A DNA stretch of 43,249 nt from Pseudomonadota bacterium (GTDB taxonomy: Bacteria > Myxococcota_A > UBA796 > GCA-2862545), in assembly GCA_046051915.1 (NCBI GenBank), contig JBJONI010000357.1, positions 1-43,249 on the forward strand, in the 5' to 3' direction. Made by a program: the position numbers and the translations under genes. Position 1 is the stretch's first letter. The number at the start of each line of letters is the position of its first letter. Shown here one piece after another: positions 3,547 to 43,249 of the stretch. A model generated the notes under the pieces. It saw nothing but the letters and a program-made list of their open reading frames with translations, ran no database searches and was not told the origin of the DNA.

Positions 3547-3978
3547 TCAGCCGACCCGGACGTCGTCGAACGCGACCTCGATCTCTTCCACCGCCAGCTC
3601 GCTTCCACCCGACGAGAGCGCCGGGCCCTGCCACCGAACCGGCCACATCCCGACGAGGTGGAACCGCTCCACGGCGGTGCCGTCGCCGTCGTAGACCGTG
3701 ATCGCCCCTGAGCTGCGCTGACGGGTGTCGCCGGCACGACAACGCTCCCGCCAATCGAGCAGCCCGTGCGTCACTTGGGTCGCCAGACGCAGCGTGACGT
3801 TCTCCCATCCTGCCGGGGTGGTGCGCCGATGCAAGTAGCCGTTGACGCCGCCTTCCTCGATCTCAAAAACGTCGCTCCGCGTGCGAATCCCACTACAACC
3901 GTGGAAGTGCGCAACCTCGACGCCGTCGACCTCAAGCGCGAACCGGTGACCACCAGCGGGATCCTGCCGCAGTTGCAT
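3547..3978 (-). CDS. Contractile-tail tube protein (T4 gp19-like 'conserved phage tail region protein')
   Basis: The protein MQLRQDPAGGHRFALEVDGVEVAHFHGCSGIRTRSDVFEIEEGGVNGYLHRR..WENVTLRLA....LLDWRE......RSSGAITVYDGDGTAVERFHLVGMWPVRWQGPALSSGGSELAVEEIEVAFDDV matches the tube-family pattern FxVEIDGxxxxxFxECSGLxxExEVxExxEGGxN...NITLKRG...WxW...WPxKWxGPxLxA..NExAIExLEL. An RBS (GGGAGGGGG) lies 6 nt upstream of the ATG. Confidence 0.85.
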   Translation of the reverse strand: MQLRQDPAGGHRFALEVDGVEVAHFHGCSGIRTRSDVFEIEEGGVNGYLHRRTTPAGWENVTLRLATQVTHGLLDWRERCRAGDTRQRSSGAITVYDGDGTAVERFHLVGMWPVRWQGPALSSGGSELAVEEIEVAFDDVRVG

Positions 3979-31663: not shown

Positions 31664-32638
31664 TCAGGGCATCACGACGCGCCCGAGGACGTCGGGACAG
31701 ACGACGAACGGGTTCGCGTTGCCCTGGCGTGTCTTGATCTTCAAGCTGCGGGCCACGTCGGCCTCTGTCGGGGGATCCGCGTCGTGCCAAGCGACATACA
31801 GCGCCTCGTCCTCGGGCAAGACGTCCATCGCGTACCGCAACTGCATGTACAGCAGGGCACGGGCCACGTCGCCCTTGTGGTCGTCGCGAGGCTCAAAAGC
31901 GAGGTTGCCAAGCGCGTCGCGCCCGTGTCGGCTCCCCCCCTCCTGCCAGTCGATCCCGCTGGTCACCGGTCGGAGGGGATCGGACCCGCGACGCGAGTTC
32001 GCCTCCGCCATCGTGGGAAACAGGTGGTGGAGGTCGCAGCGGCGCTGCCCGATCTCGGCCCCCAGCGATTGAGGCCACGTGTGCTCGGTGTTCATCACAT
32101 CGCCCGCCGGCTTGGTGGCCCCCACAGCGACCTTTTGGCCCGTATAGACGCAGCGGACCTCGCCAGCGGCGTCCTTGTCGAGGATCAGGAACATCCAGTC
32201 CGTGGTGTCGGAGTAGTCGCACGACCCGTTGGTCGCGACCGCCGTCGCGAGCCGGCTCCAGAGGTCCGCACCATCGACGGCGTCCCGGACCGCGTCGTAG
32301 TAGCCAGCGTCGCTGCACGGCTTGCAGGCCGGATCGCCCTCGACGATCGCCTCGGCGTCGGGCACCGCCCGGTCGCAGTCGTTGTCGCGCCCATCGCAAC
32401 GCTCGGGTGCCCCCGGGTAGCTGAACGCGTCGTCGTCGTCGCAGTCGACGTCAGAAGCCGCGCCATCCGCGTCCGCGTCGGTCGCCGATGGCGTCTCTCC
32501 CGGCGTGTCGGATGCGGTCTCCGTGGAGGACGTCTCCTCCGCCGTCTCGGACGCACCGGTGTCCTTGCCGGGACCACCCGCGCCTGAGCAAGCCCACACC
32601 GTTGCCGCCACGACTGCCCAAGGACGCCACGCCCGCAT
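31664..32638 (-). CDS. Endonuclease I-family extracellular nuclease lipoprotein with a MopE-like Cys/Asp metal-binding motif
   Basis: The lipobox is MRAWRPWAVVAATVWACSG (GGAGG lies 5 nt upstream). An acidic Thr/Ser/Glu linker follows, then DCDDDDAFSYPGAPERCDGRDNDCD (MopE-type motif). The nuclease core reads VYTG......MNTEHTWPQS......DLHHLFPTMAEANSRRGSDP....FEPRDDHKGDVARALLYM, matching the Endonuclease_1 signature. Confidence 0.8.
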   Translation of the reverse strand: MRAWRPWAVVAATVWACSGAGGPGKDTGASETAEETSSTETASDTPGETPSATDADADGAASDVDCDDDDAFSYPGAPERCDGRDNDCDRAVPDAEAIVEGDPACKPCSDAGYYDAVRDAVDGADLWSRLATAVATNGSCDYSDTTDWMFLILDKDAAGEVRCVYTGQKVAVGATKPAGDVMNTEHTWPQSLGAEIGQRRCDLHHLFPTMAEANSRRGSDPLRPVTSGIDWQEGGSRHGRDALGNLAFEPRDDHKGDVARALLYMQLRYAMDVLPEDEALYVAWHDADPPTEADVARSLKIKTRQGNANPFVVCPDVLGRVVMP

Positions 32639-32685
32639 CGGACCTCCGAGGGCCATGCTCTAGCCGATGCAAGGGCCTGAGGCCC

Positions 32686-33648
32686 TCACGCGGGGCGACC
32701 GCACACGGCGCAGCCCGCCGCCGTGGCCACCGCCTCGCGCGCCGCCAAGCATCCTCGGTGAAAGACGCGTCCGCAGGCCTGCCGGCAGGCGGCCGCGACG
32801 TCGTCCGCCACGTCTCGGCCACAGATCCCACACGTCCCCCGCTCGGCGGCCACCTGTTCGGCGTCGGCAGAAGCGACGGGGAGGCCTTGATCGGGGGCCG
32901 CGACCGGGCCGAGCCACACGAGCCGGCCGAGCCAACCCGACGTGCTCGCCCCCAGCACGGTCAACGCGGCGAACCGCCAAGGCGCGACCGGGACCGGCGT
33001 CGGCAGGCCGAACGCGTCCGCCGCCGCCGTGTCCCCCGCGAGCCAACCACCGAGCACCCCCAACGTCAGCGGCGCGCTCGCGGCGACGAGCGTGGCACCC
33101 AAGGCGATCCAGCCCGGGGCGCGGCTCGGGTGCCCATCGGCCAACACCCCCGCGAGTCGCGTGGCGGTCCAAGCCGCGCCAAACCCGCCGCACCAGGCAA
33201 CGGCCGCCGTAGGCTCCACGCTCACGGCGAACGCCCACAGCACGGCCCAGCCCGCCCAGCGCAAGCTTGCATCCACGAGGTCCCGCCCGCGGTAGGGCGT
33301 TCGGTCTGGCCAGACCACACCGGGGGGCCGCTCCACCACAGGATCCCCACGCCGCGGTTCCGGCAGCAGGTAGACGAGCTCGTAAGGGACGATCCCGAGG
33401 TCCTCGAGCCGCTCCCCAGGCGCAAGATCGCGGCCCCGTGCGCGTAGGGTGAACCGCCGACGGGAGCCGTCCTCCCACCAGCCGCCAAGTCCCACGTCAC
33501 GCGCCATGCGGGCCGTGAGGTCCTCGGCGCCGAGGTAGGTCGGCACCACGAGGTCGACCAAGCGCGGCTGCCGGTCGATGACTTGCACGCGCAGCGGCAC
33601 GGTGCCGGCCGCGCCGGGCAGGTCGTTCCCGGGTACCCCCGAAACCAA
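32686..33648 (-). CDS. Membrane protein: N-terminal ubiquitin-like (YukD/EccD-N-like) domain, about 4 TM helices, C-terminal C4HC3 zinc finger
   Basis: The N-terminal sequence VPLRVQVIDRQPRLVDLVVPTYLGAEDLTARMARDVGL......FTLRARGRDLAPGERLEDLGIVPYELVYLLP follows a beta-grasp pattern. Four hydrophobic segments follow. The C-terminus reads CGICGRDVADDVAAACRQACGRVFHRGCLAAREAVATAAGCAVCG. The start is uncertain: TTG 33648 sits 3 nt after the upstream stop, and GTG 33600 is the alternative. Confidence 0.6.
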   Translation of the reverse strand: MVSGVPGNDLPGAAGTVPLRVQVIDRQPRLVDLVVPTYLGAEDLTARMARDVGLGGWWEDGSRRRFTLRARGRDLAPGERLEDLGIVPYELVYLLPEPRRGDPVVERPPGVVWPDRTPYRGRDLVDASLRWAGWAVLWAFAVSVEPTAAVAWCGGFGAAWTATRLAGVLADGHPSRAPGWIALGATLVAASAPLTLGVLGGWLAGDTAAADAFGLPTPVPVAPWRFAALTVLGASTSGWLGRLVWLGPVAAPDQGLPVASADAEQVAAERGTCGICGRDVADDVAAACRQACGRVFHRGCLAAREAVATAAGCAVCGRPA

Positions 33649-33650
33649 GG

Positions 33651-34598
33651 TCAGGCCTTGCCGGGATCGACGGTCGCCTGAAGCTCTTCGACCGCGCGGT
33701 CCAACGCGGGCAGGCAACGCTCAAACTGCTCGAACCACCGCTGCCATTCGCGGTCGTCGTGGTGCGGCTCCGGTCGCCGATCGTCGAGCGCCCGCACCAA
33801 CTCCGCGACTTGCTCGAACCGATCGGTCAACGCGCGCACGGCGTCGGCATCGTAAAACCCGCGCGCATGGCCGACGAGAGAGCCCGCAGCCCGGTACAGC
33901 ACGCGGTCCGACGTACCCTCCTCCAACAGCACGAACTCTGCGGCAACCACCGCAGCGTAGAAGCCGAACGACGCCACGTCCAACTCCTGAAGGACGGCGG
34001 TGCGGTAGACCAGCGTGAGCGCGCGACGGCTGCGATCGACGAAGCGCAGGACCATCGGCTTGAGCGCGGACTCTGCCGCCCGCGCCACCCGTCCCGCGCG
34101 CGGCACCGGCACCGCCAGCTTCGCCATCCGTCCCAAGCGCACCCGAAGGTGGGCGAGCGCGACGCCATCCTCGATCTCCTCGTCCGCCGGCACCAGACGC
34201 GGCTGGATGCGTTCCACCGCCCGCGCGCTCTGCGGCTGGTCGCTCGTGTCAAACACGGGTCGCAGCGCCAGCGGATCGAGTGGCTCGTCGCGCACGAGCC
34301 ACAGCGTGTAGTCCCCATCGGTGCCTTGCTCTTCCAGGGGCACCACGCGATCGGACGCCAGCCGGATCCCTTGACCACGCGCGGTCAGCCCAAACCCGGC
34401 ACGAACACGCGCCTCGTAGCGGTCGAGCGTCTGCACGAGCTCGACGCCGAGCCCTTGCACGACACCATGGCCGTGGAGGAAGTGGGCGTGACGCTCCAGC
34501 GCGCGGCGATGGAAACTCTGCTCGACGATGAGGTCAGCAGCCGTCAAGCACAAGCCCTCAAACGGGCGGAGGCGAACGAGCGGTTCGTCGTGGGCCAT
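33651..34598 (-). CDS. Hypothetical protein (315 aa), CIS-operon member of unknown function
   Basis: ATG 34598 overlaps the upstream TGA (TGATG junction). The sequence is MAHDEPLVRLRPFEGLCLTAADLIVEQSFHRRALERHAHFLHGHGVVQGLGVE... followed by a helical C-terminal half. Third-codon positions are GC-rich. I can name no family. Confidence 0.7.
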   Translation of the reverse strand: MAHDEPLVRLRPFEGLCLTAADLIVEQSFHRRALERHAHFLHGHGVVQGLGVELVQTLDRYEARVRAGFGLTARGQGIRLASDRVVPLEEQGTDGDYTLWLVRDEPLDPLALRPVFDTSDQPQSARAVERIQPRLVPADEEIEDGVALAHLRVRLGRMAKLAVPVPRAGRVARAAESALKPMVLRFVDRSRRALTLVYRTAVLQELDVASFGFYAAVVAAEFVLLEEGTSDRVLYRAAGSLVGHARGFYDADAVRALTDRFEQVAELVRALDDRRPEPHHDDREWQRWFEQFERCLPALDRAVEELQATVDPGKA

Positions 34599-35722
34599 CA
34601 AACACTCTCATCAAAGCGGAGGGTAAACGCGACATGGGCCGGCCGTTCGTGGCTGACGACGTCGGCGATGCGGCGCAGGACATGCTCCGCGCGCTCGCCG
34701 AACCGGCCGCGAAACGCATCCGCGGGCTCGAGGAGCAGCACGAAGAAGTCGGTGTCGGCGTGGGCCTCTGGGGCGACCAGGAAGCACGCTTGTGCCTCGC
34801 GGCGGTGGTATCGGCCCACGACGTCCTCACCGCCGACGAGGTGGGCTCGCCCCAACGCCATCGGCGCCGGCCGCTGCCGCTCGCGCGCGCGCACGGGCGC
34901 CGTCGTGAGGACTTCGACCATCTCCTCGACGCCCACCCGGGTGCCGCGGGTTCGGTACAGGCGGATCGCGCGACGCACCAGCTCGCGCTGCTGATGAAGG
35001 GGCAAGCTCGCATCGAGGTCGAACCCCACCCAACTCGCGAGCCACGGCAGAAACTTCGGGGCGCACGCCAACGGATCGGTGAGGTCGGCCAGCCCGTCGA
35101 GGGTGTCGGTGACCGTCGTGTGCTGGTGCTGCAGCAAGAACAGGAAGCGGCGCAGCGGGTGGGCGTCGACGTCACGCTCCTCGGAGCGGCGGTCGAGCGC
35201 CGTGCCGCCAACCCGCGCGAGCTGCGTCGAGGTGACCGTCTCGACCTCACGGATCGCGACGGGCCCCTCACCAGAGAACAACGCCGGGAGAAACCTAAGG
35301 TATCCGCGAACAGGAACAACCAGAACGAGCCGATCTTGGGCTTCTAGCGCGCCAAGACGGCCCGCCGGCCCGTCGACCACGGGCCGCATGCGCACCAGGG
35401 CGTCAGGGACGAAGAAGCTCGCAGGCTGGCCGTTCGCGAGCTCGCGCTCCGCACGAATCACGCTCACCTGACCGCTCGCGGCGTGATGCACTTCCACGGC
35501 GCGTACGACACCCGGTCGCTCCCCACGCCCGAGCTCCACGAGCCGGTAGCTCACGGGGTTGCCCACCGCGCGCTGCAAGTGCAGGCGCGCGGAACGCACC
35601 GAGAGCCGCGCCGTCACGACCGCCGCGAGGCGCGCCAGATCCCCCTGCCCGACCGCGAGCGCGGTGCGTTCCGAGGTGGGCGACGGCGAGGCCGGCCCGA
35701 CGAGCATGCGCCGGCGCTTCAC
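34598..35722 (-). CDS. Baseplate protein, P2 gpI-like 'phage tail protein' domain (Afp12-like position)
   Basis: The sequence YLRFLPALFSGEG.......HPLRRFLFLLQHQHTTVTDTLDGLADLTDPLACAPKFLPWLASWVGFDLDASLPLHQQRELVRRAIRLYRTRGTRVGVEEMVEVL...ERPAHVAFTLRF fits the family pattern (YLPxiY...FLxRFL...fDPxxAPxxFLxWLAxWxG...rRxLi..a..lyr.RGT..Gl...kPAHT). GTG 35722 overlaps the Baseplate-J TGA (GTGA). The alternative start is ATG 35707. Confidence 0.8.
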   Translation of the reverse strand: MKRRRMLVGPASPSPTSERTALAVGQGDLARLAAVVTARLSVRSARLHLQRAVGNPVSYRLVELGRGERPGVVRAVEVHHAASGQVSVIRAERELANGQPASFFVPDALVRMRPVVDGPAGRLGALEAQDRLVLVVPVRGYLRFLPALFSGEGPVAIREVETVTSTQLARVGGTALDRRSEERDVDAHPLRRFLFLLQHQHTTVTDTLDGLADLTDPLACAPKFLPWLASWVGFDLDASLPLHQQRELVRRAIRLYRTRGTRVGVEEMVEVLTTAPVRARERQRPAPMALGRAHLVGGEDVVGRYHRREAQACFLVAPEAHADTDFFVLLLEPADAFRGRFGERAEHVLRRIADVVSHERPAHVAFTLRFDESV

Positions 35723-38700
35723 GCGCGTTCCTCCGCCCATCGGATCCGAACCTCGCGAACGAGGAACAGGTCGACACCAGGCAGCGAGAGGATCGCATCT
35801 CCCGGAGAGGTCTCCCAGCCCGGCGGCGGCACGCGTCCTCCTTGCAGGGTCGGAGCGACGGGGAACAGGCGAACGTCCACCACGTGCCGGACCTCTGGCA
35901 CCGCGAGCACGAGACGACCAAAGTCGGCCGCGAACACCGTCGCGCCGAAGGGCCAACCCTCCCCGTCTAGACCACCCGCCCACGGGTCGAGGAACGTCCT
36001 GACCCAAGCCTGTGCCGCTTCGCGCGCCGCCACCACGTCCGCGTGGGCGCGCAGCCGCACGTCGAGGCTGACATCGACCGCCTGGAACGTCGCGAGGCGG
36101 ACCTTGGGCCGCACATTGACGAGGCAGCGCCGCTGGACGTAGTGCTGGACATGGTCCAACAACCCGGCGGAGAGGAACGGATCCGGCAGCGCCTCATGGG
36201 CGCGCTTACGCGGAAGGATCACGACCTCGATGCCCCCGTCCGCGCCCACCGACCCGACGCACGCGGCGCGTGCAACCTCCGGACTCGCCTCGGTCGCGAT
36301 CACCTCGAAGTCCTTGCGGGTCACCGCCCGGTCGCGGCTGGTGAGCACCGACGGCGCGCGCCGCACGATCTCGTCGACCGTCTCGGCGTCGCGTCCCCCC
36401 ACGGCGGGCAGGAGGTTGATCACGTCGACGACATCGGCAAAGCCTTCACTGAGCGCGATCTCCGCGGCAGCTACGTTACCCGCCGCTCCCGGGATCACGT
36501 GGTACGACGCCACGGTCACGTTGAACGTCCCGATCGGGAGGATCCTGCCACGGATGCCGTTGCCGAAGGTGAGCGTACCGTCGACGGCGTCGACGACGAA
36601 GACCCGGTCGTCCTTGCTGGCGGCCGCGAAGCTGTTCCCGGGCGCGACGCGCCAAGCACGAGGCTGCGCCTCGCCCTCATCAACCCAGACCGCCAGATCG
36701 GTCGTCCGGTCACGGGCCACGTCGGACGCGTCCGGCAGCCAAAGCGGCTGGTGGCGCAGGTGGACGACTTGCCCTGGGATCCCCTCGCCGCTGAACTTTT
36801 CCATCCGGAAGCCGTGGAGATTTCGGGCTTCCACGGTGTTCGGCAGCAGATGGGTCACGGGCGGCAGCACAGGGAACCGCCCCTCGGCGACCCGGAACAA
36901 CCCGCGCAACCACACGCCCTCTGGCGCCGGTCGCATCGGCTGGTCGAGCGAGAAGGTGAGGCTGCCGCTGCGATCCATCCGCCAGGCGCCTGCGCTCTCA
37001 TCCGCCGTGCCGCTGGTCAGCCGTGTCCAACGCCGAACCCCTGGGGTCGGCTCCTGCAGCAGCTCCCAATGGACCGAGAACCCCTGCGGGAGCCACGTCT
37101 CGCCGGCCTGCAGAAACATCGTGTGCAGGCGGCTCCCGACAGGCAGGGGCCGGTCAAAACGCAGGTACAGCGCGCGGTGGCCGCCGTCAGGATCCTCGAT
37201 CGCGATCTGGGGGTCGAAGGGAAGCGTGGAGGCGACATCGCCGTCGAGGCGCCGCAGCAAGCGCGTGAAGCGACGGTTCGCGGGGCGGTGCTCCACCGCA
37301 ACGACGCGGGTTCCGGGGAGCGGCTCGTCGTAGACCTGCGCGCCCGGGATGCGTTCGAGGCTGATCCGTGCGTCATGGACGCGAAGCGTCACGGCCGAGG
37401 GCGGGGCGGTGGGCTCGGTCTGGTACGACAGCGCCGCGCGGGTGAGCTCGATGCGCAGCCAGCAGGTGGTACGTTGGCCGACCTCGGTCGGCGCGATGCC
37501 GGGGAGGTGTTCGGCAGGGTCGAGCGCCAGACGCAGCCGCCGACGCTCCGCGAGCGGTGCGCCGTCCGGGTCGAGATCGGCGAACGTGAAGCGCGCGAGA
37601 TCGAGGTCGCCGACCTGCACCGTCTGCCAGCCCGCAGCCGTCCGGTACGTCAGTTGCAAGTGGTAGTCGCCGTCGGGCTCCGCGACGATCTCCCCGTCCC
37701 GCTCGAACGCGATGTCGAGTTCGATCAGCACGGGCTCCCGGCGGCGGTTCGCTAGGAGGTCACTGCCGAGGAAGAACTTCATACCGAGCAACGCCGGCAG
37801 CGTCGGCAGCGGTTGGAACGGGGTCACCGGCAGCTCGCCGGCGAGGATCTCGCTCGCAGCGGAGACCTCGGGTCCCCACGCGAGGAACACATCGGCCGGA
37901 CGCTGCCACACGGCGTCGATCCGCAGCGCCGGAAGGACCCCGAGCAAATCCACGCTCTCGCGACGCTCCGCCCGCAGGTTGAACCCGTCCGCCGCGAGAT
38001 CGAGGAGCGGCCCCGTGAGCACGAACGACGCGCCGACCTGTTCCACCGCGCCGGCTGGCACCGGCTCCCAGGTGTCGCCGCGCCGCCACGACCAAGCGTA
38101 GTGCGGGAAGACGCCCTCCCGCCCCAGCCGCAGTCCGTGGTCGACCAGCGTAAAGCGAAGCGTCCAGCCCGGCCGAAGCGGCGGCACATTGGGGACGAAG
38201 AACTCGAGCGTACGACCCACGGCACGAACCTGCCAGCTCGTGATCTCGTGCTCCTCGCCGCCGCGATCGTCGCGCCACGTGATCGTCAGCTCGCCCTCTT
38301 GGCCCATCAGGTCCGCGAGCCAACGCTCCATGTCGAGTCGGCCCCGAATCCATCCCTGCTGCGGCAGGTCGTCCGGCCAGGGGATCGCGTCGTCCACCGC
38401 CCCCAGCTGCGTGATCGGCGCCATCCACGGGAGTTCCGCTGCAAGCAGCGGCTCTGGCAGGCCCATCACCTCGCCGGGCGGCTCGGGGAAGGGCGCGATC
38501 GGCGTCCAGCCTTCGCCGTCCAAGCGGGGATACTCCCAAGCAAACAACCCCGCGACGGGGAGGCCGACCGCGCCGTCGTCGCCGACCTCGAGGACCGACC
38601 GAAGCCGAAGGGCGCCACCCGGGCCCTCGCCGGCGTCGACCCGTCCCATCCGCAGGAAGTCGTCGTGGCGCAGGTAGATCCAATGATCCGGGGTGTAGCT

Positions 38701-39246
38701 TTGCGGACCGTCCCGAGAAGGATCGAGGTCGAGCAGCGACAGCCCGCGTTCGCCAAAGCGGAGGGCACCGCTCCCCTCGTCGAACACGTCCCACGCGATC
38801 TCGCGCGACATCGGCTGGGGCCCGGCGGCGACGGCGACAATTCGGTCGACGCGCGCCCCATGCACGCTCACCGGCTCGGCGGTGAGGAAGTGCAGCGCAT
38901 CCCCGCCTTGACGTTGCCGCGTCGAGCAACGCTCCGAGGCGGGAAGTTCGACGACGGCCGTGTCGGGTTGGCGAAGCGAGAAGGTCAGCGGGACGACCGC
39001 AGGCCGCGCGTTGCGCCGCTCCTCGCCAATGAAGTTCAGGAAGTGGACGTAGGTCTTATCGGGCACCCGATTCAGACGGTACAACGTCATTTCCGTCATC
39101 CAAGCGAACAACTGGACCAGCGTCATGCCCGGGTCGCTGTCGCCCAGGTGCGTCCACTCGGGACAATACTGGGGGATCAGCGCGCGAGCCTCGCGCACCA
39201 GGTCGTCGTAGCTGCGGTCGTCGAGGCGTGGAGGCTGAATCGGCAT
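35719..39246 (-). CDS. Baseplate J-like 'putative baseplate assembly protein' (Afp11/gp6-like), 1175 aa
   Basis: MPIQPPRLDDRSYDDLVREARALIPQYCPEWTHLGDSDPGMTLVQLFAWMTEMTLYRLNRVPDKTYVHFLNFIGEE is the hallmark N-terminus of this family. The C-terminal Baseplate_J region reads ...VTVASYHVIPGAAGNVAAAEIALSEGFADVVDVINLLPAVGGRDAETVDEI. Confidence 0.9.
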   Translation of the reverse strand: MPIQPPRLDDRSYDDLVREARALIPQYCPEWTHLGDSDPGMTLVQLFAWMTEMTLYRLNRVPDKTYVHFLNFIGEERRNARPAVVPLTFSLRQPDTAVVELPASERCSTRQRQGGDALHFLTAEPVSVHGARVDRIVAVAAGPQPMSREIAWDVFDEGSGALRFGERGLSLLDLDPSRDGPQSYTPDHWIYLRHDDFLRMGRVDAGEGPGGALRLRSVLEVGDDGAVGLPVAGLFAWEYPRLDGEGWTPIAPFPEPPGEVMGLPEPLLAAELPWMAPITQLGAVDDAIPWPDDLPQQGWIRGRLDMERWLADLMGQEGELTITWRDDRGGEEHEITSWQVRAVGRTLEFFVPNVPPLRPGWTLRFTLVDHGLRLGREGVFPHYAWSWRRGDTWEPVPAGAVEQVGASFVLTGPLLDLAADGFNLRAERRESVDLLGVLPALRIDAVWQRPADVFLAWGPEVSAASEILAGELPVTPFQPLPTLPALLGMKFFLGSDLLANRRREPVLIELDIAFERDGEIVAEPDGDYHLQLTYRTAAGWQTVQVGDLDLARFTFADLDPDGAPLAERRRLRLALDPAEHLPGIAPTEVGQRTTCWLRIELTRAALSYQTEPTAPPSAVTLRVHDARISLERIPGAQVYDEPLPGTRVVAVEHRPANRRFTRLLRRLDGDVASTLPFDPQIAIEDPDGGHRALYLRFDRPLPVGSRLHTMFLQAGETWLPQGFSVHWELLQEPTPGVRRWTRLTSGTADESAGAWRMDRSGSLTFSLDQPMRPAPEGVWLRGLFRVAEGRFPVLPPVTHLLPNTVEARNLHGFRMEKFSGEGIPGQVVHLRHQPLWLPDASDVARDRTTDLAVWVDEGEAQPRAWRVAPGNSFAAASKDDRVFVVDAVDGTLTFGNGIRGRILPIGTFNVTVASYHVIPGAAGNVAAAEIALSEGFADVVDVINLLPAVGGRDAETVDEIVRRAPSVLTSRDRAVTRKDFEVIATEASPEVARAACVGSVGADGGIEVVILPRKRAHEALPDPFLSAGLLDHVQHYVQRRCLVNVRPKVRLATFQAVDVSLDVRLRAHADVVAAREAAQAWVRTFLDPWAGGLDGEGWPFGATVFAADFGRLVLAVPEVRHVVDVRLFPVAPTLQGGRVPPPGWETSPGDAILSLPGVDLFLVREVRIRWAEERA

Positions 39247-39249
39247 ACG

Positions 39250-39636
39250 TCACCCGCCCGTCGAGACGTCGAGGTTCATGACCTGTTCCTGGTTCGACGA
39301 TCGAACCCGGTAGCGCACGTCGACCGCGATGCGGCCCTGAGCCGTGGCCTCCGCTTTGACGTCGACCACATCGATCCGTGGCTCCCAGCGCTCGAGGGCG
39401 GACCGAACATGGTAGGCCACCAAGCTCGCGTTCGCCGACGTGTTCGGGGTGTACAACAGCTCATGGATGCGGCATCCAAAGTCAGGCATCTTCTGCCGTT
39501 CCCCGGGACGCGTCCCGAGGATGATCGACATCGATTCCCGGATGTTGTCCTCCGCAGAGGACAACGCCAGCCCGCCCGTCGCGGGGTCGAAGGCGAAGGG
39601 AAACGCCACGCCACGACCCAAGAAGTCTCGGTTCAC
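39250..39636 (-). CDS. GPW/gp25-family baseplate wedge protein (Afp9-like)
   Basis: MNRDFLGRGVAFPFAFDPATGGLALSSAEDNIRESMSIILGTRPGERQKMPDFGCRIHELLYTPN......VRSALERWEPRIDVVDV fits the gp25 pattern (iLxTxxGERxMxPxFGxxl..l.F.p...WEPRi). The start is GTG. The stop lies 3 nt before the Baseplate-J ATG. Confidence 0.9.
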   Translation of the reverse strand: MNRDFLGRGVAFPFAFDPATGGLALSSAEDNIRESMSIILGTRPGERQKMPDFGCRIHELLYTPNTSANASLVAYHVRSALERWEPRIDVVDVKAEATAQGRIAVDVRYRVRSSNQEQVMNLDVSTGG

Positions 39637-39745
39637 GATCGCCTTCGTGGCCCGCCGTGCTCACCGCTCGGATCGCGCCACCCCGGTTGTACCACAGGCG
39701 GCCACCTCCGGCGCAAGCGACGCGCACCGAGGCGCCCCGGATCGC

Positions 39746-40774
39746 TCAGGTCGGCATCGTGTTCGAGCAGAACTGGAACTCGGTGGCGTAGCCGCGGCGG
39801 ATCTCGAAGAAGTGACGGCTCCCGACGACGTACACCTCGGGGTTGAACCCCGTGGGGTGCCCCTGGAAGCGCACCTTGGTGCCGGCATGGATCTCCGCGT
39901 TCCCGTCGACGCGCGCGCTCCCTCGCAGGAAGTTCCGCGCGGCTCGATTCAGCTCCGCCGCGGCGATCTCCTTCGCCGACCCCTGCGTGTGGTGCGTGAC
40001 GTCGGTCACGTGGCTCGTGCCCTGCCAGATCTGCGACGCGACCGACACAGCACTCCGGCCCCCGCCGATCTTCTCGACGTCGCCATCGCCAGCCGTGCCC
40101 TCGACCTTGTCCTTTTGGCCGTAGTCCCACCCGGTCGTCTTGATCTCCGCGGGCATCCCGACCGCGTTCATCTCGTAGTCGAGGTCCTCGAGCGCATCGG
40201 TGCTGACCACGGTGCTTCGGCCGCCAAACTGGGGTTTCACAAAGTCAATCCTCCCCTCGTTCGCCATCAGCAAGTAGCCGTTGCGACCGGCGAGCCGCTT
40301 CATGAACTCGAGATCGGACTCGTTGCGCTGCGTGATGTGATCGTTCTTTTGGGCCGTGCTGTCGATCTTGCCGACCTTCAGCCCAGCGCGGCCGAGCACC
40401 TTGCGGACGATGTCGGCGTCGGTCATCTTCTCGTACGTCTCGGTACGACGGCTGGCGCTGGCCTTGATCAACGGGTCCATCGCCATGACGGTCATCACCT
40501 CACGGCCTTGCTTGTAGCTGTGTCGCATGCCCGTCACGACGCCGACGAACATCTTGCGCTGCGTCTGGCCGACGGAGACTTCGACGTCCGACCCGATCTG
40601 GATCGACGACCAAGCGCCATGGTCGAGGTTGAGGCAGATGCGGGCCACGCCGATCACGTCGACGTGGTCCTCGACCATGAGGTACTCGAGGCCGGCGTTC
40701 TCGGCTTGGGAGTACGTCTTACCGCCCACGGTCGCGGTGAACCGGTAGGCCTCGTGGCGGGGAGGCGCGCTCAT
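39746..40774 (-). CDS. Phage late control gene D (gpD)/VgrG-N-like baseplate hub, 342 aa, no spike domain
   Basis: The sequence ...LEYLMVEDHVDVIGVARICL.......VEVSVGQTQRKMFVGVVTGMRHSY.......MDPL......RRTETYEKMTDADIVRKVLGRAGLKVG.IDST......ITQRNESDLEFMKRLAGRNGYLLMANEG...F.....GNAEIHAGTKVRFQGHPTGFNPEVYVVGSRHFFEIRRGYATEFQF is typical of Phage_GPD. The ATG overlaps the upstream TGA (ATGA). Confidence 0.9.
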   Translation of the reverse strand: MSAPPRHEAYRFTATVGGKTYSQAENAGLEYLMVEDHVDVIGVARICLNLDHGAWSSIQIGSDVEVSVGQTQRKMFVGVVTGMRHSYKQGREVMTVMAMDPLIKASASRRTETYEKMTDADIVRKVLGRAGLKVGKIDSTAQKNDHITQRNESDLEFMKRLAGRNGYLLMANEGRIDFVKPQFGGRSTVVSTDALEDLDYEMNAVGMPAEIKTTGWDYGQKDKVEGTAGDGDVEKIGGGRSAVSVASQIWQGTSHVTDVTHHTQGSAKEIAAAELNRAARNFLRGSARVDGNAEIHAGTKVRFQGHPTGFNPEVYVVGSRHFFEIRRGYATEFQFCSNTMPT

Positions 40775-43101
40775 TCGGCCTCCTCAGGCTCGCCACCGCG
40801 ACGCCCCGAGAGCGCGTCGAGCAGGTCGGACCCGACCCGCGGCAGGTTGCTTGCGCCTGTCGCGGTGTCACGATGAACCGGGCGTGGCGCACCGGCTCCC
40901 GAAACGGGCGCGGGGACGGGCGCTGCCGAAGGCCGAACCCGCTCGGCCGCGCCGGTCGAGGACACGGCACGCTCCGGTGCGACCGGCGCCGATGGCCCCG
41001 TCGGCCCCACCGCGGGGCTGCCACCAGCGCCGGTGGAGGGCGATGCGCTGGAAGGCGCCGACGGTGCAGCCGCCGCGGCACCACTCGGACCCGAGGCGCC
41101 GGCCCCGGGACCCGCGGAACCGGCACCTGAACCGGTCGGGCCCGACGGGCCGGCAGAGCCCGCGCCAACGCCTTGCCCGCCCGACGCACCCGAAGGCGCA
41201 CCACCGCGCGGCCCGCGCGGGCCCGGGCCGGACGCCGGTGCGCCGGGGCCAGCGGTCGCGGCCGCAGGGCCCGAGGTCGCCGCCGCGCCGCCCGCGGGAG
41301 ACGCGGGGCCGACGCCCGAAGTCGCCGGACCGCCCTGGGCGGCGCCACCGCCCGGTGAAGCCGTCGCTCCGGGACCCGTCGGAGTGGCGCCAGCGCCGGC
41401 TCCGATGCCCGACGTCGCGCCGTCCGCGGGTGCCGTCCCGGCAGCCGTGGTGTCGCCTGTCGGTGCCGACGCCCCTGCCGGAGGCGTCCCCGACCCTCCG
41501 CGGGGAGCGCCTGGCCCAGACGCCGCGCCGGCACCCGGACCCACGCCCATCCCACCGGACGCTGGCGACCCGCCAGCCGGCCCGGAACCCGTCGACGCAC
41601 CGGCGCCGCCACGTGGCGTCGGTCCGCCCGTGGAGGCACCCGGCCCCGGCACAGCCGGCTCGACGGCGTCGCCCGCTGCCGCGCCGCCACCGCCCGTGCC
41701 GGCACCGCCGCCAGCAGGACCACCCGTACCTGCGCCAGCGCCAGCCGGACCACCCGTACCAGCACCCCCGCCAGCTGGACCGCCTGCGCCGCCGCCACGA
41801 GGACCACCGCCGCCCGTCGGCGCGCCCGTACCGGCACCGCCGCCAGCAGGACCGCCTGCCCCGCCGCCGCCGCGAGGACCGCCAGGCGTGCCGCCAGCAG
41901 GGCCGCCCGCGCCACCGCCGGCGCCGCGAGGACCACCGCCGCCGGCACCGCCCGCGCCACCGCCGCCGCGAGGACCGCCGTCGCCGTCACCGCCGCCGCG
42001 AGGACCACCGCCGCCGGCACCACCCGCGCCACCGCCGCCGCGAGGACCGCCGCCGCCGAAGTTGGGGCGCTCTGGGCGACCCCCGCCGTCGTCGTCGTCG
42101 CCAAAAACGTTGTCGATCGCTCCTTCCAACCGGTGGACGTCGCGCACGACGGAGCCGACGGCGCCCGTCACCGCGTCGACAGTCCGCGCCACGCCGACGG
42201 CGACGTCGCGCACGTCGTCCGCGACGTCCAGCACGAAGTCAGCCGCCTCGCCGATCGCCCCGCTGATCGCATCCGCGACGCTGTTGAGCTGCGCGCCGAG
42301 CGCGCCGTCGTCGGCGAAGATGCCACCCAGACCCGGTGCGAGGCGTCCGAGCTCTTGGAACGGGTCCACAGCCCCGCTCGCCAGCCATGCCGCCGTGTTG
42401 GCCGCGCGCCGCGCGCCCTCCAGCACGTCCGCCACCGCCGACGAGCCCGGGATCACCAGCTGCATGCCCGGCACGACCGACAGCGGGTCGAGGATGCCGT
42501 TCGCGCGGGCGATATCCTGGAAAGGCACGCCCGCGGCTGCGGCGAGCGACGACAACGTTTGGCCGGCGCCGAGCGTCATCGTCTGCGTGGCGGAGAGCGC
42601 CGAGGCGGACAGCCCGCTGAGTGCGCCGCCACCAAGCTTCATCGCCGCGTTTGTGTTCGCGGCGTTGTGCTCCATCAGTTGCACGGCGACCTTCGCGCGG
42701 ACGGGCGAGCCGTCGGGCGCGAACATCAGGTAGCTGACGTCCAGCTGCTTCAGGATGCAGGTGAAGTCGAACCCACCCCACGAGAAGCGCAAGTACGGCG
42801 GGCGGGTGTAGGTCTTGCCGTCCTTGACGACCTTGACCGTCTGCTCCAACAGGTTGCGGAACCCGTTGACGGACCCCGACACCGTCCCGCCCTCACGCGT
42901 GGAGTCGAAGAAGAACTCCATGCTCAAGTTCGCGGGCTGCCCCTTCTCGTACGTCAGCGCCGGGTGCGCCACGTTGCCCTTCGGCTTCCAGTCCGCTCCA
43001 TCGGAGAGCTGGAACTCCTTGGGGTTAAACTGGACCTTCAGCGATGAGCCGGAGTCCAGGTTCGTGAACACCGCCTTCTCGTTACCACCAGAAATCGCCA
43101 T
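40771..43101 (-). CDS. CIS tube-initiator-like protein with a LysM domain (Afp7-like) carrying a ~415-aa Gly/Pro/Ala/Ser-rich low-complexity extension
   Basis: ATG 43101 has GGGAGG 5 nt upstream. The N-terminus is MAISGGNEKAVFTNLDSGSSLKVQFNPKEFQLS...LSMEFFFDST...PPYLRFSWGGFDFTCILKQLDVSYLMFAPDGSPVRAKVAVQL (tube-like N-domain). The LysM domain reads TMTLGAGQTLSSLAAAAGVPFQDIARANGILDPLSVVPGMQLVIP. From residue ~334 to ~750 the sequence is G/P/A/S/T-rich. The alternative start is GTG 43167. Confidence 0.85.
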   Translation of the reverse strand: MAISGGNEKAVFTNLDSGSSLKVQFNPKEFQLSDGADWKPKGNVAHPALTYEKGQPANLSMEFFFDSTREGGTVSGSVNGFRNLLEQTVKVVKDGKTYTRPPYLRFSWGGFDFTCILKQLDVSYLMFAPDGSPVRAKVAVQLMEHNAANTNAAMKLGGGALSGLSASALSATQTMTLGAGQTLSSLAAAAGVPFQDIARANGILDPLSVVPGMQLVIPGSSAVADVLEGARRAANTAAWLASGAVDPFQELGRLAPGLGGIFADDGALGAQLNSVADAISGAIGEAADFVLDVADDVRDVAVGVARTVDAVTGAVGSVVRDVHRLEGAIDNVFGDDDDGGGRPERPNFGGGGPRGGGGAGGAGGGGPRGGGDGDGGPRGGGGAGGAGGGGPRGAGGGAGGPAGGTPGGPRGGGGAGGPAGGGAGTGAPTGGGGPRGGGAGGPAGGGAGTGGPAGAGAGTGGPAGGGAGTGGGGAAAGDAVEPAVPGPGASTGGPTPRGGAGASTGSGPAGGSPASGGMGVGPGAGAASGPGAPRGGSGTPPAGASAPTGDTTAAGTAPADGATSGIGAGAGATPTGPGATASPGGGAAQGGPATSGVGPASPAGGAAATSGPAAATAGPGAPASGPGPRGPRGGAPSGASGGQGVGAGSAGPSGPTGSGAGSAGPGAGASGPSGAAAAAPSAPSSASPSTGAGGSPAVGPTGPSAPVAPERAVSSTGAAERVRPSAAPVPAPVSGAGAPRPVHRDTATGASNLPRVGSDLLDALSGRRGGEPEEAE
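40854..42102. repeat. Low-complexity GC-rich coding tract (Gly/Pro/Ala codons, with local ~63-bp periodicity around 41930-42060)
   Basis: GGPRGGGGAGGAGGGGPRGGGDGDGGPRGGGGAGGAGGGGPRG-type units are present. All six frames are open here, which produces ORFs 40719..42104, 40851..42266 and 41033..42733 in the track. Confidence 0.8.
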
Positions 43102-43249
43102 AGCGACCTCCCTCTCCACGCTCACGAGAGCGCTCAAGCTCCCGCTGCACGGCTTCAAGGACTTCACGCTGGAGGGAGGCCAGGGTCACCCCGTCCGCTC
43201 CCTCGACCTGCCCGGCGCGCCCCTGCGAGGCCGCGCCCACCTTCTCGTC
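43082..43249 (-). CDS. C-terminal end of an upstream CIS-operon gene (partial, runs off the right edge)
   Basis: The reverse frame from 43249 reads DEKVGAASQGRAGQVEGADGVTLASLQREVLEAVQRELERSRERGEGGRYGDFWW*. GC3 is high over the first ~27 codons. The TAA at 43082-43084 overlaps the LysM-gene start by 20 nt. Function is unknown (tape-measure or Afp6-position protein?). Confidence 0.35.
   Translation of the reverse strand, partial: DEKVGAASQGRAGQVEGADGVTLASLQREVLEAVQRELERSRERGEGGRYGDFWW

What the first reader, a model, noticed from the sequence alone, without database searches (positions are those of the whole stretch)
34598..43249. Baseplate half of a contractile injection system with a non-canonical inventory, running off the window edge
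The gene order on the minus strand is as follows:
- a partial upstream ORF
- LysM/tube-initiator (Afp7-like)
- gpD hub (Afp8-N-like)
- gp25 (Afp9-like)
- 1175-aa Baseplate-J protein (Afp11-like)
- gpI-like protein (Afp12-like)
The junctions are a 20-nt overlap, ATGA, a 110-nt gap, a 3-nt gap, GTGA and TGATG. There is no capsid, terminase, portal, integrase or lysis gene, so this is a tailocin/eCIS-type machine rather than a prophage. Within the window there is no PAAR, no gp5-like spike domain, no tail fibre and no AAA+ ATPase. Downstream genes are atypical (see the separate findings). Sheath, tube, cap and ATPase genes, if present, must lie beyond 43249. Together with the membrane protein and the detached tube gene at 3.5 kb, this may be an undescribed CIS subtype in a Myxococcota-like genome.
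Basis: partly seen in the sequence, partly recalled or inferred. Interest (0 to 1): 0.75.

Follow-up and report, generated by a model that had tools for sequence, protein, structure and literature searches.

The report
Myxobacterial injection-machine baseplate with membrane partner
This is the baseplate operon of a phage-tail-like injection machine found only in uncultured myxobacteria; its core parts are ordinary, but it lacks the piercing spike and a receptor-binding fibre and instead carries a conserved adaptor and membrane protein, which suggests it fires while docked to the cell's own membrane.

Summary
The window is a whole 43,249-bp contig that ends inside the tape-measure gene.

About 60 species-level Myxococcota MAGs carry the same locus. 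The order is cap (Pvc16_N), sheath, tube, tail chaperone, second sheath, second tube, tape measure, LysM tube-initiator and hub, then gp25, a 1,150-1,190-aa Baseplate-J, Tail_P2_I, a 315-aa protein and a ~300-aa membrane protein. The missing half is therefore canonical. It is a chromosomal contractile injection system (CIS), not a prophage.

One relative has an Afp15-like ATPase and a DUF4157 gene about 5 kb upstream.

Three gaps are real across the family: no spike OB-fold domain, no PAAR and no receptor-binding fibre.

It is as conserved as the wedge proteins. The next gene encodes an EccD-like ubiquitin-fold, four-helix membrane protein with an invariant C4HC3 zinc finger.

My preferred reading, which is inferred, is a membrane-docked system in the manner of T6SS or Streptomyces CIS (CISSc). 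A classical released eCIS remains possible.

TssK-like/Tail_P2_I baseplates and eCIS clusters in uncultured Myxococcota are already published, so this is a new variant of a known kind.

The parts
43082..43249 (-). 3' end (55 codons plus stop) of the tape-measure-like gene (Cis14/Afp14 position), cut by the contig end
   Evidence: The C-terminal motif ...VTLASLQREVLEAVQRELE...FWW* matches the C-terminus of the 965-1444-aa protein upstream of the LysM gene in L009, L011 and L008. The same 20-nt overlap with the next gene occurs in those relatives.
40771..43101 (-). LysM tube-initiator (Afp7/Cis7-like), 776 aa: CIS_tube domain (aa 18-152), LysM (aa 179-218), a helical acidic stretch, then a Gly/Ala/Pro low-complexity tail of roughly 440 aa
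   Evidence: Pfam PF19266 E 1.4e-28 and PF01476 E 2.7e-7. Tandem 72-nt and 15-42-nt repeats at 41690-42060. Orthologues are 439-916 aa with different C-terminal repeats.
39746..40774 (-). Baseplate hub (P2 gpD / gp27-like; the N-terminal two thirds of Afp8/Cis8), 342 aa, without an OB-fold or spike
   Evidence: PF05954 E 3e-15. NCBIfam VgrG_rel matches model positions 52-349 of 547 only. The solved Cis8/VgrG relatives of 533-643 aa align only over their residues ~70-340. The family is uniformly ~340 aa. No gpV/gp5 OB domain occurs in any family locus.
39637..39745 (.). 109-nt intergenic gap, the likely boundary between two transcription units and the position where relatives are split
   Evidence: Between the hub and gp25 genes L033 has 6 kb of unrelated opposite-strand genes and L014 has 4.4 kb. 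In nine loci the gp25-to-membrane-protein module is not within 10 kb downstream of the hub gene. In outgroup L073 a separate gpV-like spike gene follows the hub gene directly.
39250..39636 (-). gp25-like sheath-initiator / wedge protein (Afp9/Cis9/TssE-like), 128 aa
   Evidence: PF04965 E 1.2e-25; TIGR03357 TssE E 7e-10; PHROG baseplate wedge subunit.
35719..39246 (-). Baseplate-J wedge protein (Afp11/Cis11), 1175 aa
   Evidence: TIGR02243, 257.9 bits, above cut-off. The best solved relative is Streptomyces CISSc Cis11, 9gtp, E 3e-49. Length is 1150-1189 aa across the family.
36787..38811 (-). Family-specific middle region of the J protein (aa 146-820), about 520 aa longer than the equivalent region of CISSc Cis11; a candidate cage or membrane-facing extension
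   Evidence: In the phmmer alignment residues 1-145 align to 1-145 of Cis11 and residues 821-1141 to 303-626. The region is well conserved with many invariant residues. A profile of the family gives no sequence match to any solved structure in this region. The analogy to Alg11 domain IV, the spike cage (PMC8894135), is inference.
34598..35722 (-). Short Tail_P2_I wedge/adaptor protein (short Cis12, TssG-like class), 374 aa
   Evidence: PF09684 E 8e-14. TIGR02242 above cut-off, and only the C-terminal part of CIS12_fam matches. The best solved relative is the 190-aa CISSc chain 9gtp_E.
33651..34598 (-). TssK-like baseplate adaptor (shoulder beta-sandwich plus helical neck, no head or receptor-binding domain), 315 aa, at the tail-fibre position
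   Evidence: AlphaFold2 with a 38-sequence alignment gives pLDDT 85.4. The top 14 Foldseek PDB hits are all T6SS TssK, E 6e-6 to 1e-4 over ~310-350 alignment columns. In BFVD, phage receptor-binding-protein/fibre N-terminal shoulders match the N-terminal part. NCBIfam CIS13_fam matches the N-terminus at E 1e-9. At least 277 homologues are 308-325 aa. Median identity to the L009 orthologue is 52%, the same as the wedge proteins.
32686..33648 (-). Conserved membrane protein, 320 aa: N-terminal ubiquitin-like domain, four TM helices, C-terminal C4HC3 zinc finger
   Evidence: AlphaFold2 gives pLDDT 81.8. Foldseek best hits are EccD of ESX type VII systems, plus ubiquitin/SUMO for residues ~16-96. 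The motif C-x2-C-x11-C-x3-C-x4-H-x2-C-x12-C-x2-C has invariant or nearly invariant ligands. The same architecture occurs in about 30 species directly after the TssK-like gene. Only 69 clusters match among 1.84 billion representative proteins.
3547..3978 (-). Detached gp19-type tube gene, 143 aa, 36 kb from the locus among housekeeping genes; possibly an extra tube paralogue of the same machine
   Evidence: PF06841 E 1.4e-24. It is 43% identical to the locus tube2 of L009. The same position occurs in five other assemblies of this organism. Its link to the machine is inferred.

Best explanation
Identity (about 0.95 confidence). The region is the baseplate operon of a chromosomally encoded contractile injection system. 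The system belongs to a lineage of the Afp/PVC-like (eCIS) superfamily found only in uncultured Myxococcota.

Assembly by homology:
- The LysM tube-initiator and the gpD-type hub form the centre.
- gp25 starts the sheath.
- Baseplate-J plus a short Tail_P2_I protein form the wedges. They are closest to Streptomyces CISSc Cis11/Cis12.
- The genes for cap, two sheath proteins, two tube proteins, a tail chaperone and the tape measure lie just beyond the contig end.

Mode of action (about 0.45 confidence, inferred). The machine is assembled in the cytoplasm and docks to the producer's inner membrane. A trimeric TssK-like adaptor (33651-34598) would sit on the Tail_P2_I/TssG-like protein. In place of a receptor-binding head, it would contact the cytoplasmic ubiquitin-like and zinc-finger domains of the four-helix membrane protein encoded by the next gene (32686-33648). 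The ~520-aa extension of the J protein may also face the membrane. Firing would then be T6SS-like or CISSc-like rather than from a released particle. The spike/PAAR tip, the ATPase and cargo genes are expected elsewhere in the genome.
For: Shown:
- Domain identities and junctions.
- Conserved 14-gene synteny in about 60 species-level Myxococcota MAGs.
- Housekeeping flanks and no phage head or lysogeny genes. No family member in IMG/VR.
- The closest solved wedge proteins are those of CISSc.
- TssK-like fold of the 315-aa protein.
- EccD-like ubiquitin fold plus 4 TM helices plus C4HC3 architecture of the next protein. The two genes are adjacent: a 4-nt overlap in L009 and L011 and a 2-nt gap here.
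- The two genes co-occur in about 30 species.

Supporting the docked mode:
- The fibre-position protein has no head domain and nearly constant length.
- It is as conserved as gp25, J and I, at a median 52% identity, whereas the hub is at 35%. Receptor-binding fibres, by contrast, are highly diverse (PMC12923769).
- An even number of TM helices puts both soluble domains of the membrane protein on one side. The Cys-rich zinc finger argues for the cytoplasm (inference).
- There are precedents for a membrane protein partnering an eCIS-type cluster. CisA is encoded at the fibre position of CISSc (PMC12237407). A conserved 6-TM protein correlates with T6SS mode in haloarchaea (PMC11566945). In T6SSiv a site on the cage domain of the J-protein homologue mediates attachment to the inner membrane (PMC8894135).
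- The locus is fragmented among housekeeping genes in relatives, and this genome has a detached tube gene. This fits an old, vertically inherited cellular machine.
Against: - No interaction, localisation or topology has been measured or modelled. The docking step is inference from fold, position and conservation.
- TssK-like N-terminal anchors are a known class of eCIS fibres that includes 'minimal attachment-only modules' (PMC12923769). The shoulder domain also matches phage receptor-binding proteins. A released particle with a minimal fibre is therefore not excluded.
- One relative has the eCIS-typical Afp15-like ATPase and a DUF4157 gene nearby.
- No spike or PAAR gene was found, so it is unclear how the tip is built.
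- The upstream half of this particular genome was not seen.
- No TssJLM-like envelope-spanning complex was found, and Myxococcota are diderm.
Confidence: 0.5

Rival explanations
1. It is a classical extracellular CIS. Particles are assembled in the cytoplasm and released by lysis, then bind prey or host cells through the 315-aa protein acting as a minimal eBAP3-type fibre, perhaps helped by the J-protein extension. The membrane protein would be an accessory factor for release, regulation or assembly rather than an anchor.
For: - The core inventory in relatives is that of eCIS loci: Pvc16_N, CIS_tube, TIGR02243, a tape measure, and in L080 an AAA+/WHD ATPase plus an eCIS_core/DUF4157 gene.
- The 315-aa protein weakly matches the CIS13 N-terminus and phage receptor-binding-protein shoulders.
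- PMC12923769 describes TssK-like eBAP3 fibres downstream of Tail_P2_I, including attachment-only forms.
- PMC11937823 interprets Myxococcota MAG clusters as eCIS used in predation.
Against: - There is no receptor-binding head.
- The length is nearly invariant, and sequence conservation equals that of the wedge proteins. This is unlike target-recognition proteins.
- No lysis genes are present in the window or in the 21-kb locus L009.
- The adjacent, family-specific membrane protein has no obvious role in a released particle.
- No spike or PAAR is available to pierce a target.
Confidence: 0.33
2. It is a decaying or non-injecting remnant. The system has lost its spike and PAAR and is being fragmented. 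It is either non-functional or has been repurposed, for example as an intracellular cell-death or developmental device like CISSc but without puncturing.
For: - No spike OB-fold domain occurs in any family locus, although outgroups and unrelated eCIS loci have one.
- Loci are split between the hub and gp25 genes.
- The first tube gene is missing from its usual place in most distant family members.
- The ATPase is separated from the locus by metabolic genes in L080.
Against: - All 14 genes are intact, with conserved lengths and tight coupling, across about 60 species. That indicates purifying selection on a working machine.
- The J insertion carries many invariant residues.
- A gp19 tube gene was reported as the most highly expressed gene in two environmental Myxococcota MAGs (PMC11937823). 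That those MAGs carry this same family was not verified.
Confidence: 0.12
3. It is the tail module of an ordinary prophage or an R-type (P2-like) tailocin.
For: The hub is of the P2 gpD type and the wedge adaptor carries a Tail_P2_I domain. PHROG tail families match several proteins.
Against: - No capsid, terminase, portal, integrase or lysis genes are present in 43 kb here or in the 20-kb loci of relatives.
- Relatives carry eCIS-specific markers: Pvc16_N, CIS_tube plus LysM, and TIGR02243.
- There is no gpV spike and no fibre-plus-chaperone pair.
- The family is absent from IMG/VR.
- The flanks are ribosomal and metabolic genes.
Confidence: 0.03

Closest known systems
Streptomyces coelicolor CISSc (type IId eCIS-family, cytoplasmic; PDB 9gtp/9gtr; PMC12237407, PMC10066040)
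   Same: - It is the closest solved homologue of the J protein (E 3e-49) and of the short Tail_P2_I protein.
- It has no conventional fibre.
[quoted passage not shown]
   Different: - CISSc has a full 643-aa VgrG-like Cis8 with an OB fold; here the hub is 342 aa with no spike.
- Cis11 is 652 aa; here the J protein is 1175 aa, with ~520 extra residues in the middle.
- The cited paper's results give no TssK-like adaptor between the wedge and the membrane protein.
- Whether p320 (ubiquitin-like domain, 4 TM helices, C4HC3 finger) is homologous to CisA was not tested.
- The host is diderm Myxococcota, not Actinomycetota.
eCIS with a Tail_P2_I baseplate and eBAP3 (TssK-like) fibre anchors (PMC12923769)
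   Same: A Tail_P2_I gene is followed by a protein with a TssK-like shoulder. These loci largely lack a long Afp12. The paper notes that this baseplate resembles TssG-TssK of the T6SS.
   Different: - Here the anchor is followed only by a helical neck, with no binding module.
- The protein is highly conserved rather than diverse.
- It is followed by a dedicated membrane protein.
- Sequence membership in eBAP3 could not be tested, because the profile is not available.
Canonical T6SS baseplate (TssE-F-G-K docking on TssJLM)
   Same: The components are of the same kind and in the same logical order: gp25/TssE-like, J/TssF-like, P2_I/TssG-like, then a TssK-like protein matching TssK over shoulder and neck. 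A membrane protein is encoded next.
   Different: - Relatives have a phage-type sheath (Phage_sheath_1) and a gp19 tube, not TssBC and Hcp.
- They have a tape measure and a Pvc16_N cap.
- No TssJ, TssL, TssM, TssA or ClpV was found.
- The TssK head domain is absent.
AlgoCIS / MAC / T6SSiv (clade Ib; PDB 7aeb/7aef; PMC8894135)
   Same: - It is the best solved match for the hub (7aef_q, E 4e-17).
- Alg11 is also over 1000 aa, because of a large inserted domain that forms a spike cage.
- In T6SSiv a site on that cage domain mediates attachment to the inner membrane.
- DUF4157 cargo genes are present.
   Different: - No sequence similarity was detected between the J insertion here and Alg11 domain IV.
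- AlgoCIS has a long gp6+gp7-like Alg12, a full VgrG (581 aa), a PAAR (Alg10) and Alg19 fibres.
Haloarchaeal T6SS built on an eCIS-type cluster (PMC11566945)
   Same: An eCIS-family gene cluster whose T6SS-like, membrane-attached mode correlates with a conserved multi-pass membrane protein that has a cytoplasmic domain.
   Different: That anchor candidate has 6 TM helices and lies upstream of the cluster. The organism, envelope and baseplate composition are different. Homology to p320 was not tested.
eCIS/PLTS-like clusters in uncultured Myxococcota MAGs (UBA796 and others; PMC11937823)
   Same: Uncultured Myxococcota, a sheath-tube-baseplate cluster without other phage genes, and low similarity to the eCIS of cultured myxobacteria. 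This is probably the same or a sister lineage.
   Different: That paper gives only a gene-cluster cartoon and expression data. In the passages read it does not mention the missing spike, the TssK-like protein or the membrane protein. Identity with this family could not be verified, because the supplements held no relevant rows.

Membership tests
eCIS superfamily (Afp/PVC-like) | LysM / tube-initiator (Afp7) | tested here: met
   PF19266 CIS_tube E 1.4e-28 plus LysM E 2.7e-7
eCIS superfamily (Afp/PVC-like) | VgrG-like spike (Afp8: gp27 hub plus gp5 OB fold/needle) | tested here: not met
   Only the hub part is present. VgrG_rel matches positions 52-349 of 547. Solved homologues align over residues ~70-340 of 533-643. 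No OB domain occurs in the window or in about 60 family loci.
eCIS superfamily (Afp/PVC-like) | gp25-like protein (Afp9) and Baseplate-J protein (Afp11, TIGR02243) | tested here: met
   PF04965 E 1e-25; TIGR02243 257.9 bits against a cut-off of 155.8
eCIS superfamily (Afp/PVC-like) | Afp12 / Tail_P2_I wedge partner | tested here: met
   PF09684 and TIGR02242 above cut-off. Only the C-terminal third of CIS12_fam matches, so this is the short form.
eCIS superfamily (Afp/PVC-like) | Sheath, tube, tape measure, DUF4255/Pvc16_N cap | not testable with these tools
   The contig ends in the tape-measure gene. All of these are present immediately upstream in relatives, but this genome's copy was not seen.
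eCIS superfamily (Afp/PVC-like) | Afp15-like AAA+ ATPase and DUF4157 cargo marker | tested here: inconclusive
   Absent from the window and from the stretch reaching 10 kb either side of the hub gene in 64 loci. Present about 5 kb upstream of the cap gene, on the opposite strand, in the single relative with enough upstream sequence (L080).
eCIS superfamily (Afp/PVC-like) | Tail fibre with a receptor-binding module (Afp13), and PAAR (Afp10) | tested here: not met
   The fibre-position protein has only a shoulder and a helical neck. No PAAR is found in the window or in the L009 gene calls.
Canonical T6SS (i-iii) | TssK baseplate-to-membrane adaptor | tested here: met
   Met by fold only. The top 14 PDB hits are TssK. 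There is no head domain and no sequence-level match.
Canonical T6SS (i-iii) | TssB/C sheath, Hcp tube, TssJLM membrane complex, TssA, ClpV | tested here: not met
   Relatives carry Phage_sheath_1 and gp19 tube genes. No T6SS families appear in any Pfam or NCBIfam scan of the window or loci, other than weak sub-threshold TssE and VgrG matches.
CISSc-type cytoplasmic CIS (type IId) | Cis11/Cis12 wedge of the CISSc type | tested here: met
   9gtp Cis11 E 3e-49, rising to 4.6e-63 with a profile; 9gtp_E E 2.8e-6
CISSc-type cytoplasmic CIS (type IId) | CisA homologue downstream of the baseplate genes | not tested
This is analogy only.
Prophage / P2-like R-type tailocin | Head, packaging, integration or lysis genes; gpV spike; fibre plus chaperone | tested here: not met
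   None in the window or in relatives' loci. No family member in IMG/VR.

The most novel reading that the evidence does not exclude
This Myxococcota-restricted lineage is an independently evolved, cell-anchored injection system, a 'type VI-like' machine built on an eCIS chassis. A headless TssK-like trimer on a TssG-like Tail_P2_I protein would dock the baseplate to a dedicated EccD-like ubiquitin-fold, 4-TM, PHD/RING-type zinc-finger inner-membrane protein. The ~520-aa Baseplate-J extension would face the membrane. Spike/PAAR and extra tube genes would be dispersed in the chromosome, like orphan vgrG/hcp islands. It would be a new membrane-anchoring solution for contractile injection systems, in abundant uncultured predatory bacteria.
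Probability: 0.33. Interest if true: 0.8.

Novelty: new variant of a known kind. Interest (0 to 1): 0.55.

Why it matters
How a contractile injection system is positioned decides what it can do: released, anchored to the cell membrane, anchored to thylakoids, or free in the cytoplasm. Each newly found mode has changed how the family is understood.

This lineage is widespread in uncultured freshwater, marine and other environmental Myxococcota MAGs. It pairs a TssK-like adaptor with a family-specific membrane protein and has no spike or receptor-binding fibre in the locus.

If the docked mode holds, it would be a further independent route from a phage tail to a secretion system. It would also give a concrete pair of proteins to test for how baseplates couple to membranes. 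If it does not hold, the family is still a clean example of a minimal TssK-like 'fibre', and of an eCIS-type locus being broken up and domesticated in a chromosome.

Tried and rejected
1. The first homologue search used the LysM protein including its low-complexity part. It returned nothing because candidate words were swamped, so one of three searches was wasted.
2. An exact look-up of the 776-aa LysM protein found no record. Other assemblies break inside its repeat region.
3. The metagenome scan with the sheath alignment used motifs generic to all sheaths. Only 6 of 80 loci belonged to the family, and only L080 gave upstream context. The ATPase/DUF4157 evidence therefore rests on one relative.
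4. The viral-contig scan found no family member; the best match was 45% identical.
5. A profile of the whole J family found no solved structure matching the inserted middle region. 'Spike cage' remains an analogy.
6. The insertions between the hub and gp25 genes in relatives were examined as possible spike, PAAR or effector sites. Where annotatable they encode unrelated genes (a T2SS-type ATPase, a decarboxylase, an O-GlcNAc-type transferase, a sulfotransferase) or unannotated ORFs. This idea was rejected.
7. The highly conserved 121-aa protein of relatives was considered as a spike or tip candidate. It was rejected because it matches a tail assembly chaperone PHROG.
8. The promoter and terminator scan of 31-43 kb gave nothing above the shuffled expectation.
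9. The supplements of PMC11937823 held no rows that would link that paper's clusters to this family.
10. Endonuclease I and the tRNA_bind gene downstream were considered as cargo. They are not conserved downstream in L009 or L011, and the nuclease N-terminus looks like a signal peptide by eye. They are treated as unrelated neighbours.

Full report
**What is in the window**

The window is 70% G+C. On the minus strand from 43249 down to 32686 there is one tightly packed gene string. Pfam and NCBIfam identify these genes:
- a LysM/CIS_tube tube-initiator (40771-43101)
- a Phage_GPD hub (39746-40774)
- gp25 (39250-39636)
- a 1175-aa Baseplate_J protein that passes the TIGR02243 cut-off (35719-39246)
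- a 374-aa Tail_P2_I/TIGR02242 protein (34598-35722)

The 55 codons at the contig edge are the conserved C-terminus of the tape-measure-like protein of relatives. The 20-nt overlap is identical in three relatives.

A Pfam sweep of every coding-like ORF in the window finds no capsid, terminase, portal, integrase, PAAR, gp5/gpV OB domain or AAA+ ATPase. The rest of the window is housekeeping. It includes ribosomal protein S4, ETF, transaldolase, prepilin peptidase, an alcohol dehydrogenase and PRA isomerase.

The window is a complete contig. A second assembly of the same organism breaks inside the low-complexity part of the LysM gene.

**What lies beyond the edge**

The hub protein defines a family of ~340-aa proteins. 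A scan of one genome per GTDB species found 64 loci. Most record titles name Myxococcota, Myxococcales, Deltaproteobacteria or unclassified Proteobacteria. The rest carry labels such as Klebsiella, Enterobacteriaceae, Bifidobacterium, Alphaproteobacteria, Acidobacteria, Rhodobacterales and Anaerolineae, several of which look like mislabelling.

Gene calls for three long contigs and tblastn synteny over all loci show one conserved order: Pvc16_N cap, sheath (~590 aa), gp19 tube, a 121-aa protein, a second sheath (~390 aa), a second tube, a 965-1444-aa low-complexity tape-measure-like protein, the LysM tube-initiator and the hub. After the hub come gp25, J, Tail_P2_I, a ~315-aa protein and a ~300-aa protein. 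The 121-aa protein is a tail assembly chaperone by PHROG match.

The only relative with 10 kb upstream of the sheath gene is L080. It has, about 5-7 kb upstream and on the opposite strand, a 697-aa AAA+ protein with the WHD-variant domain and a 210-aa eCIS_core (DUF4157) protein. An amidohydrolase and an M20 peptidase separate them from the cap gene. The L080 ATPase aligns along most of its length with ATPases that sit directly upstream of the sheath gene in unrelated eCIS loci.

**Signs of domestication**

The locus is split between the hub and gp25 genes in several genomes. L033 has 6 kb of unrelated opposite-strand genes there, and L014 has 4.4 kb. In nine loci the gp25-to-membrane-protein module is not within 10 kb of the hub gene. 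This matches the 109-nt gap in the window, which I take to be an operon boundary.

In most of the more distant members the first tube gene is missing from its place between the sheath and the chaperone. This genome carries an additional tube gene 36 kb away among housekeeping genes. No family member is in IMG/VR.

**What is really unusual**

1. The hub has no spike.
   - NCBIfam VgrG_rel matches only positions 52-349 of 547.
   - All solved Cis8/VgrG relatives (AlgoCIS, tCIS, CISSc, PVC; 533-643 aa) align only over their first ~340 residues.
   - In an outgroup Myxococcota locus (L073) the hub gene is followed by a separate 231-aa gpV-like spike gene.
   - tblastn with that spike and with a VgrG C-terminus finds the domain in outgroups and in unrelated eCIS loci. 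It finds none in the window, in the ~60 family loci or in L080.
   - No PAAR appears in the window or in the L009 gene calls.

2. The J protein has a large extra middle region. It aligns with CISSc Cis11 at residues 1-145 and 821-1141. That leaves a conserved middle region about 520 aa longer than in Cis11. J length is 1150-1189 aa across the family. No solved structure matches this region by sequence. AlgoCIS Alg11 (1050 aa) also has a large inserted domain, and there it forms a spike cage. In T6SSiv a site on that cage domain mediates attachment to the inner membrane (PMC8894135). Applying this to the present protein is analogy only.

3. The LysM protein has a hypervariable low-complexity tail. 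It is Gly/Ala/Pro-rich here and consists of acidic 11-residue repeats in L009.

The gene at 33651-34598 has no Pfam or PHROG match and only a weak N-terminal match to NCBIfam CIS13_fam.
- It has at least 277 homologues of 308-325 aa, all unnamed or labelled hypothetical protein, the named ones from Myxococcota or Deltaproteobacteria MAGs.
- An AlphaFold2 model built with 38 sequences is confident (pLDDT 85.4).
- Its top 14 matches in the PDB are all T6SS TssK, aligned over shoulder and neck (E 6e-6 to 1e-4).
- Among viral models the N-terminal part matches phage receptor-binding-protein shoulders.
- There is no head or binding domain.
- Its median identity to the L009 orthologue is 52%. This equals gp25, J and Tail_P2_I and exceeds the hub at 35%.

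The next gene (32686-33648) is adjacent: it overlaps the TssK-like gene by 4 nt in L009 and L011 and follows it after 2 nt here.
- It has the same architecture in about 30 species.
- The architecture is an N-terminal ubiquitin-like domain, four TM helices and an invariant C-x2-C-x11-C-x3-C-x4-H-x2-C-x12-C-x2-C zinc finger. By my reading this is a C4HC3 pattern with PHD-like spacing.
- Foldseek finds EccD of ESX type VII systems and ubiquitin/SUMO.
- Only 69 clusters among 1.84 billion representative proteins match it.

**Interpretation**

Identity is secure. This is the baseplate operon of a chromosomal contractile injection system of the eCIS superfamily, in a lineage confined to uncultured Myxococcota. 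Its wedge is closest to Streptomyces CISSc.

For the mode of action I favour a membrane-docked system. The reasons are:
- The fibre-position protein is a headless TssK-like adaptor and evolves like a structural protein, not like a receptor binder.
- It is paired with a family-specific membrane protein whose two soluble domains should both be cytoplasmic. This follows from the even helix count and the cysteine-rich zinc finger, and is inference.
- Three published systems show eCIS-type clusters using a membrane partner or a cage to work at the producer's membrane: CisA (PMC12237407), the haloarchaeal anchor candidate (PMC11566945) and T6SSiv (PMC8894135).

Against this reading:
- TssK-like anchors downstream of Tail_P2_I are a published eCIS fibre class (eBAP3) that includes attachment-only forms (PMC12923769).
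- One relative has the eCIS-typical ATPase and a DUF4157 gene.
- No envelope-spanning complex was found.
- Nothing about localisation or interaction was tested.

I put the docked mode at about 0.45, a classical released eCIS at about 0.33, a degenerate or repurposed machine at about 0.12, and a prophage or tailocin at about 0.03.

**Novelty**

eCIS/PLTS-like clusters with a very highly expressed gp19 gene have been reported in uncultured Myxococcota MAGs (PMC11937823). The TssG/TssK-like baseplate type is also described (PMC12923769).

In the papers I searched and read I found no description of the combination seen here. That combination is a spike-less hub, an extended J protein, a headless conserved TssK-like protein, and a ubiquitin-fold/4-TM/zinc-finger membrane partner, in a fragmented, vertically inherited locus. 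I classify it as a new variant of a known kind.

Noticed in passing
window 3547-3978 (-), with 4001-4912 (-) and 4840-5361 (-): A detached gp19-type tail tube gene (143 aa, 43% identical to the locus tube2 of L009) lies 36 kb from the baseplate operon. It follows a thioesterase (4HBT) gene and a ~280-aa protein with no Pfam match, and sits next to the prepilin peptidase gene. The arrangement recurs in five other assemblies. It resembles an orphan hcp-like gene. PMC11937823 reports a gp19 gene as the most highly expressed gene in two Myxococcota MAGs.
   Followed up: partly
window 32686-33648 (-): A bacterial membrane protein combines a ubiquitin-like N-terminal domain, four TM helices and an invariant C4HC3 zinc finger with PHD/RING-CH-like spacing. 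Its best structural match is EccD of type VII secretion. The family is tiny: 69 clusters among 1.84 billion representatives. Whether the finger has E3-like or purely structural function is unknown.
   Followed up: partly
window 40774-42100 (-); L009 9400-9976: The C-terminal extension of the LysM tube-initiator is hypervariable low complexity. It is Gly/Ala/Pro-rich with 72-nt repeats here and consists of about ten acidic AEEAVDEIADR repeats in L009. Protein length ranges from 439 to 916 aa. Together with the Arg/Ala/Gly/Pro-rich tape measure it probably causes the assembly breaks. Its function is unknown.
   Followed up: partly
L033 2755-8790; L014 10996-15420; L040, L042, L045, L059, L061, L064, L067, L068, L072 downstream of 11011: In several relatives the locus is split between the hub and gp25 genes by unrelated genes (a T2SS-type ATPase, a PLP decarboxylase, a TPR/GT41 transferase, a sulfotransferase), or the whole gp25-to-membrane-protein module lies elsewhere in the genome.
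   Followed up: yes
L080 2344-5085 (-): An Afp15-like AAA+/WHD ATPase (697 aa) and a 210-aa eCIS_core (DUF4157) protein lie divergently, about 4-7 kb upstream of the cap gene. An amidohydrolase and an M20 peptidase lie in between. This was seen in one relative only.
   Followed up: partly
L040, L042, L045, L031, L034, L036 and others, between sheath1 and the 121-aa gene: In most distant family members only about 100 nt separate the first sheath gene from the chaperone gene, so the first tube gene present in L009, L011, L008, L025 and L020 is missing from the locus there.
   Followed up: no
window 31664-32656 (-) and 31209-31643 (-): An Endonuclease_1 protein with a putative N-terminal signal peptide (judged by eye) and a MopE-type metal-binding motif, followed by a small tRNA_bind-domain protein, lies directly after the membrane-protein gene on the same strand. 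Neither is conserved downstream in L009 or L011, so they are probably unrelated neighbours.
   Followed up: partly
window 24061-29193 (-): A 1710-aa protein has 23 DUF4215 repeats and FG-GAP/VCBS-type repeats. It is probably a large surface or secreted adhesin-like protein.
   Followed up: no
window 23141-24064 (-): A C-5 cytosine DNA methylase match covers only the first half of the Pfam model (positions 2-167 of 324) in a 307-aa ORF. It may be truncated or divergent.
   Followed up: no
L009 19345-20982 and homologues in L013, L018, L019, L030, L032, L037: A ~545-aa protein with a weak protein-kinase-like match recurs a few kb downstream of the membrane-protein gene in several relatives. It is absent from the window.
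   Followed up: no
L015, L020, L028, L031, L033, L036, L044, L050, L067 (record titles): Several public MAGs that carry this high-GC myxobacterial locus are titled Klebsiella pneumoniae, Klebsiella sp., Enterobacteriaceae or Bifidobacterium breve. These look like taxonomic mislabels in the source records.
   Followed up: no
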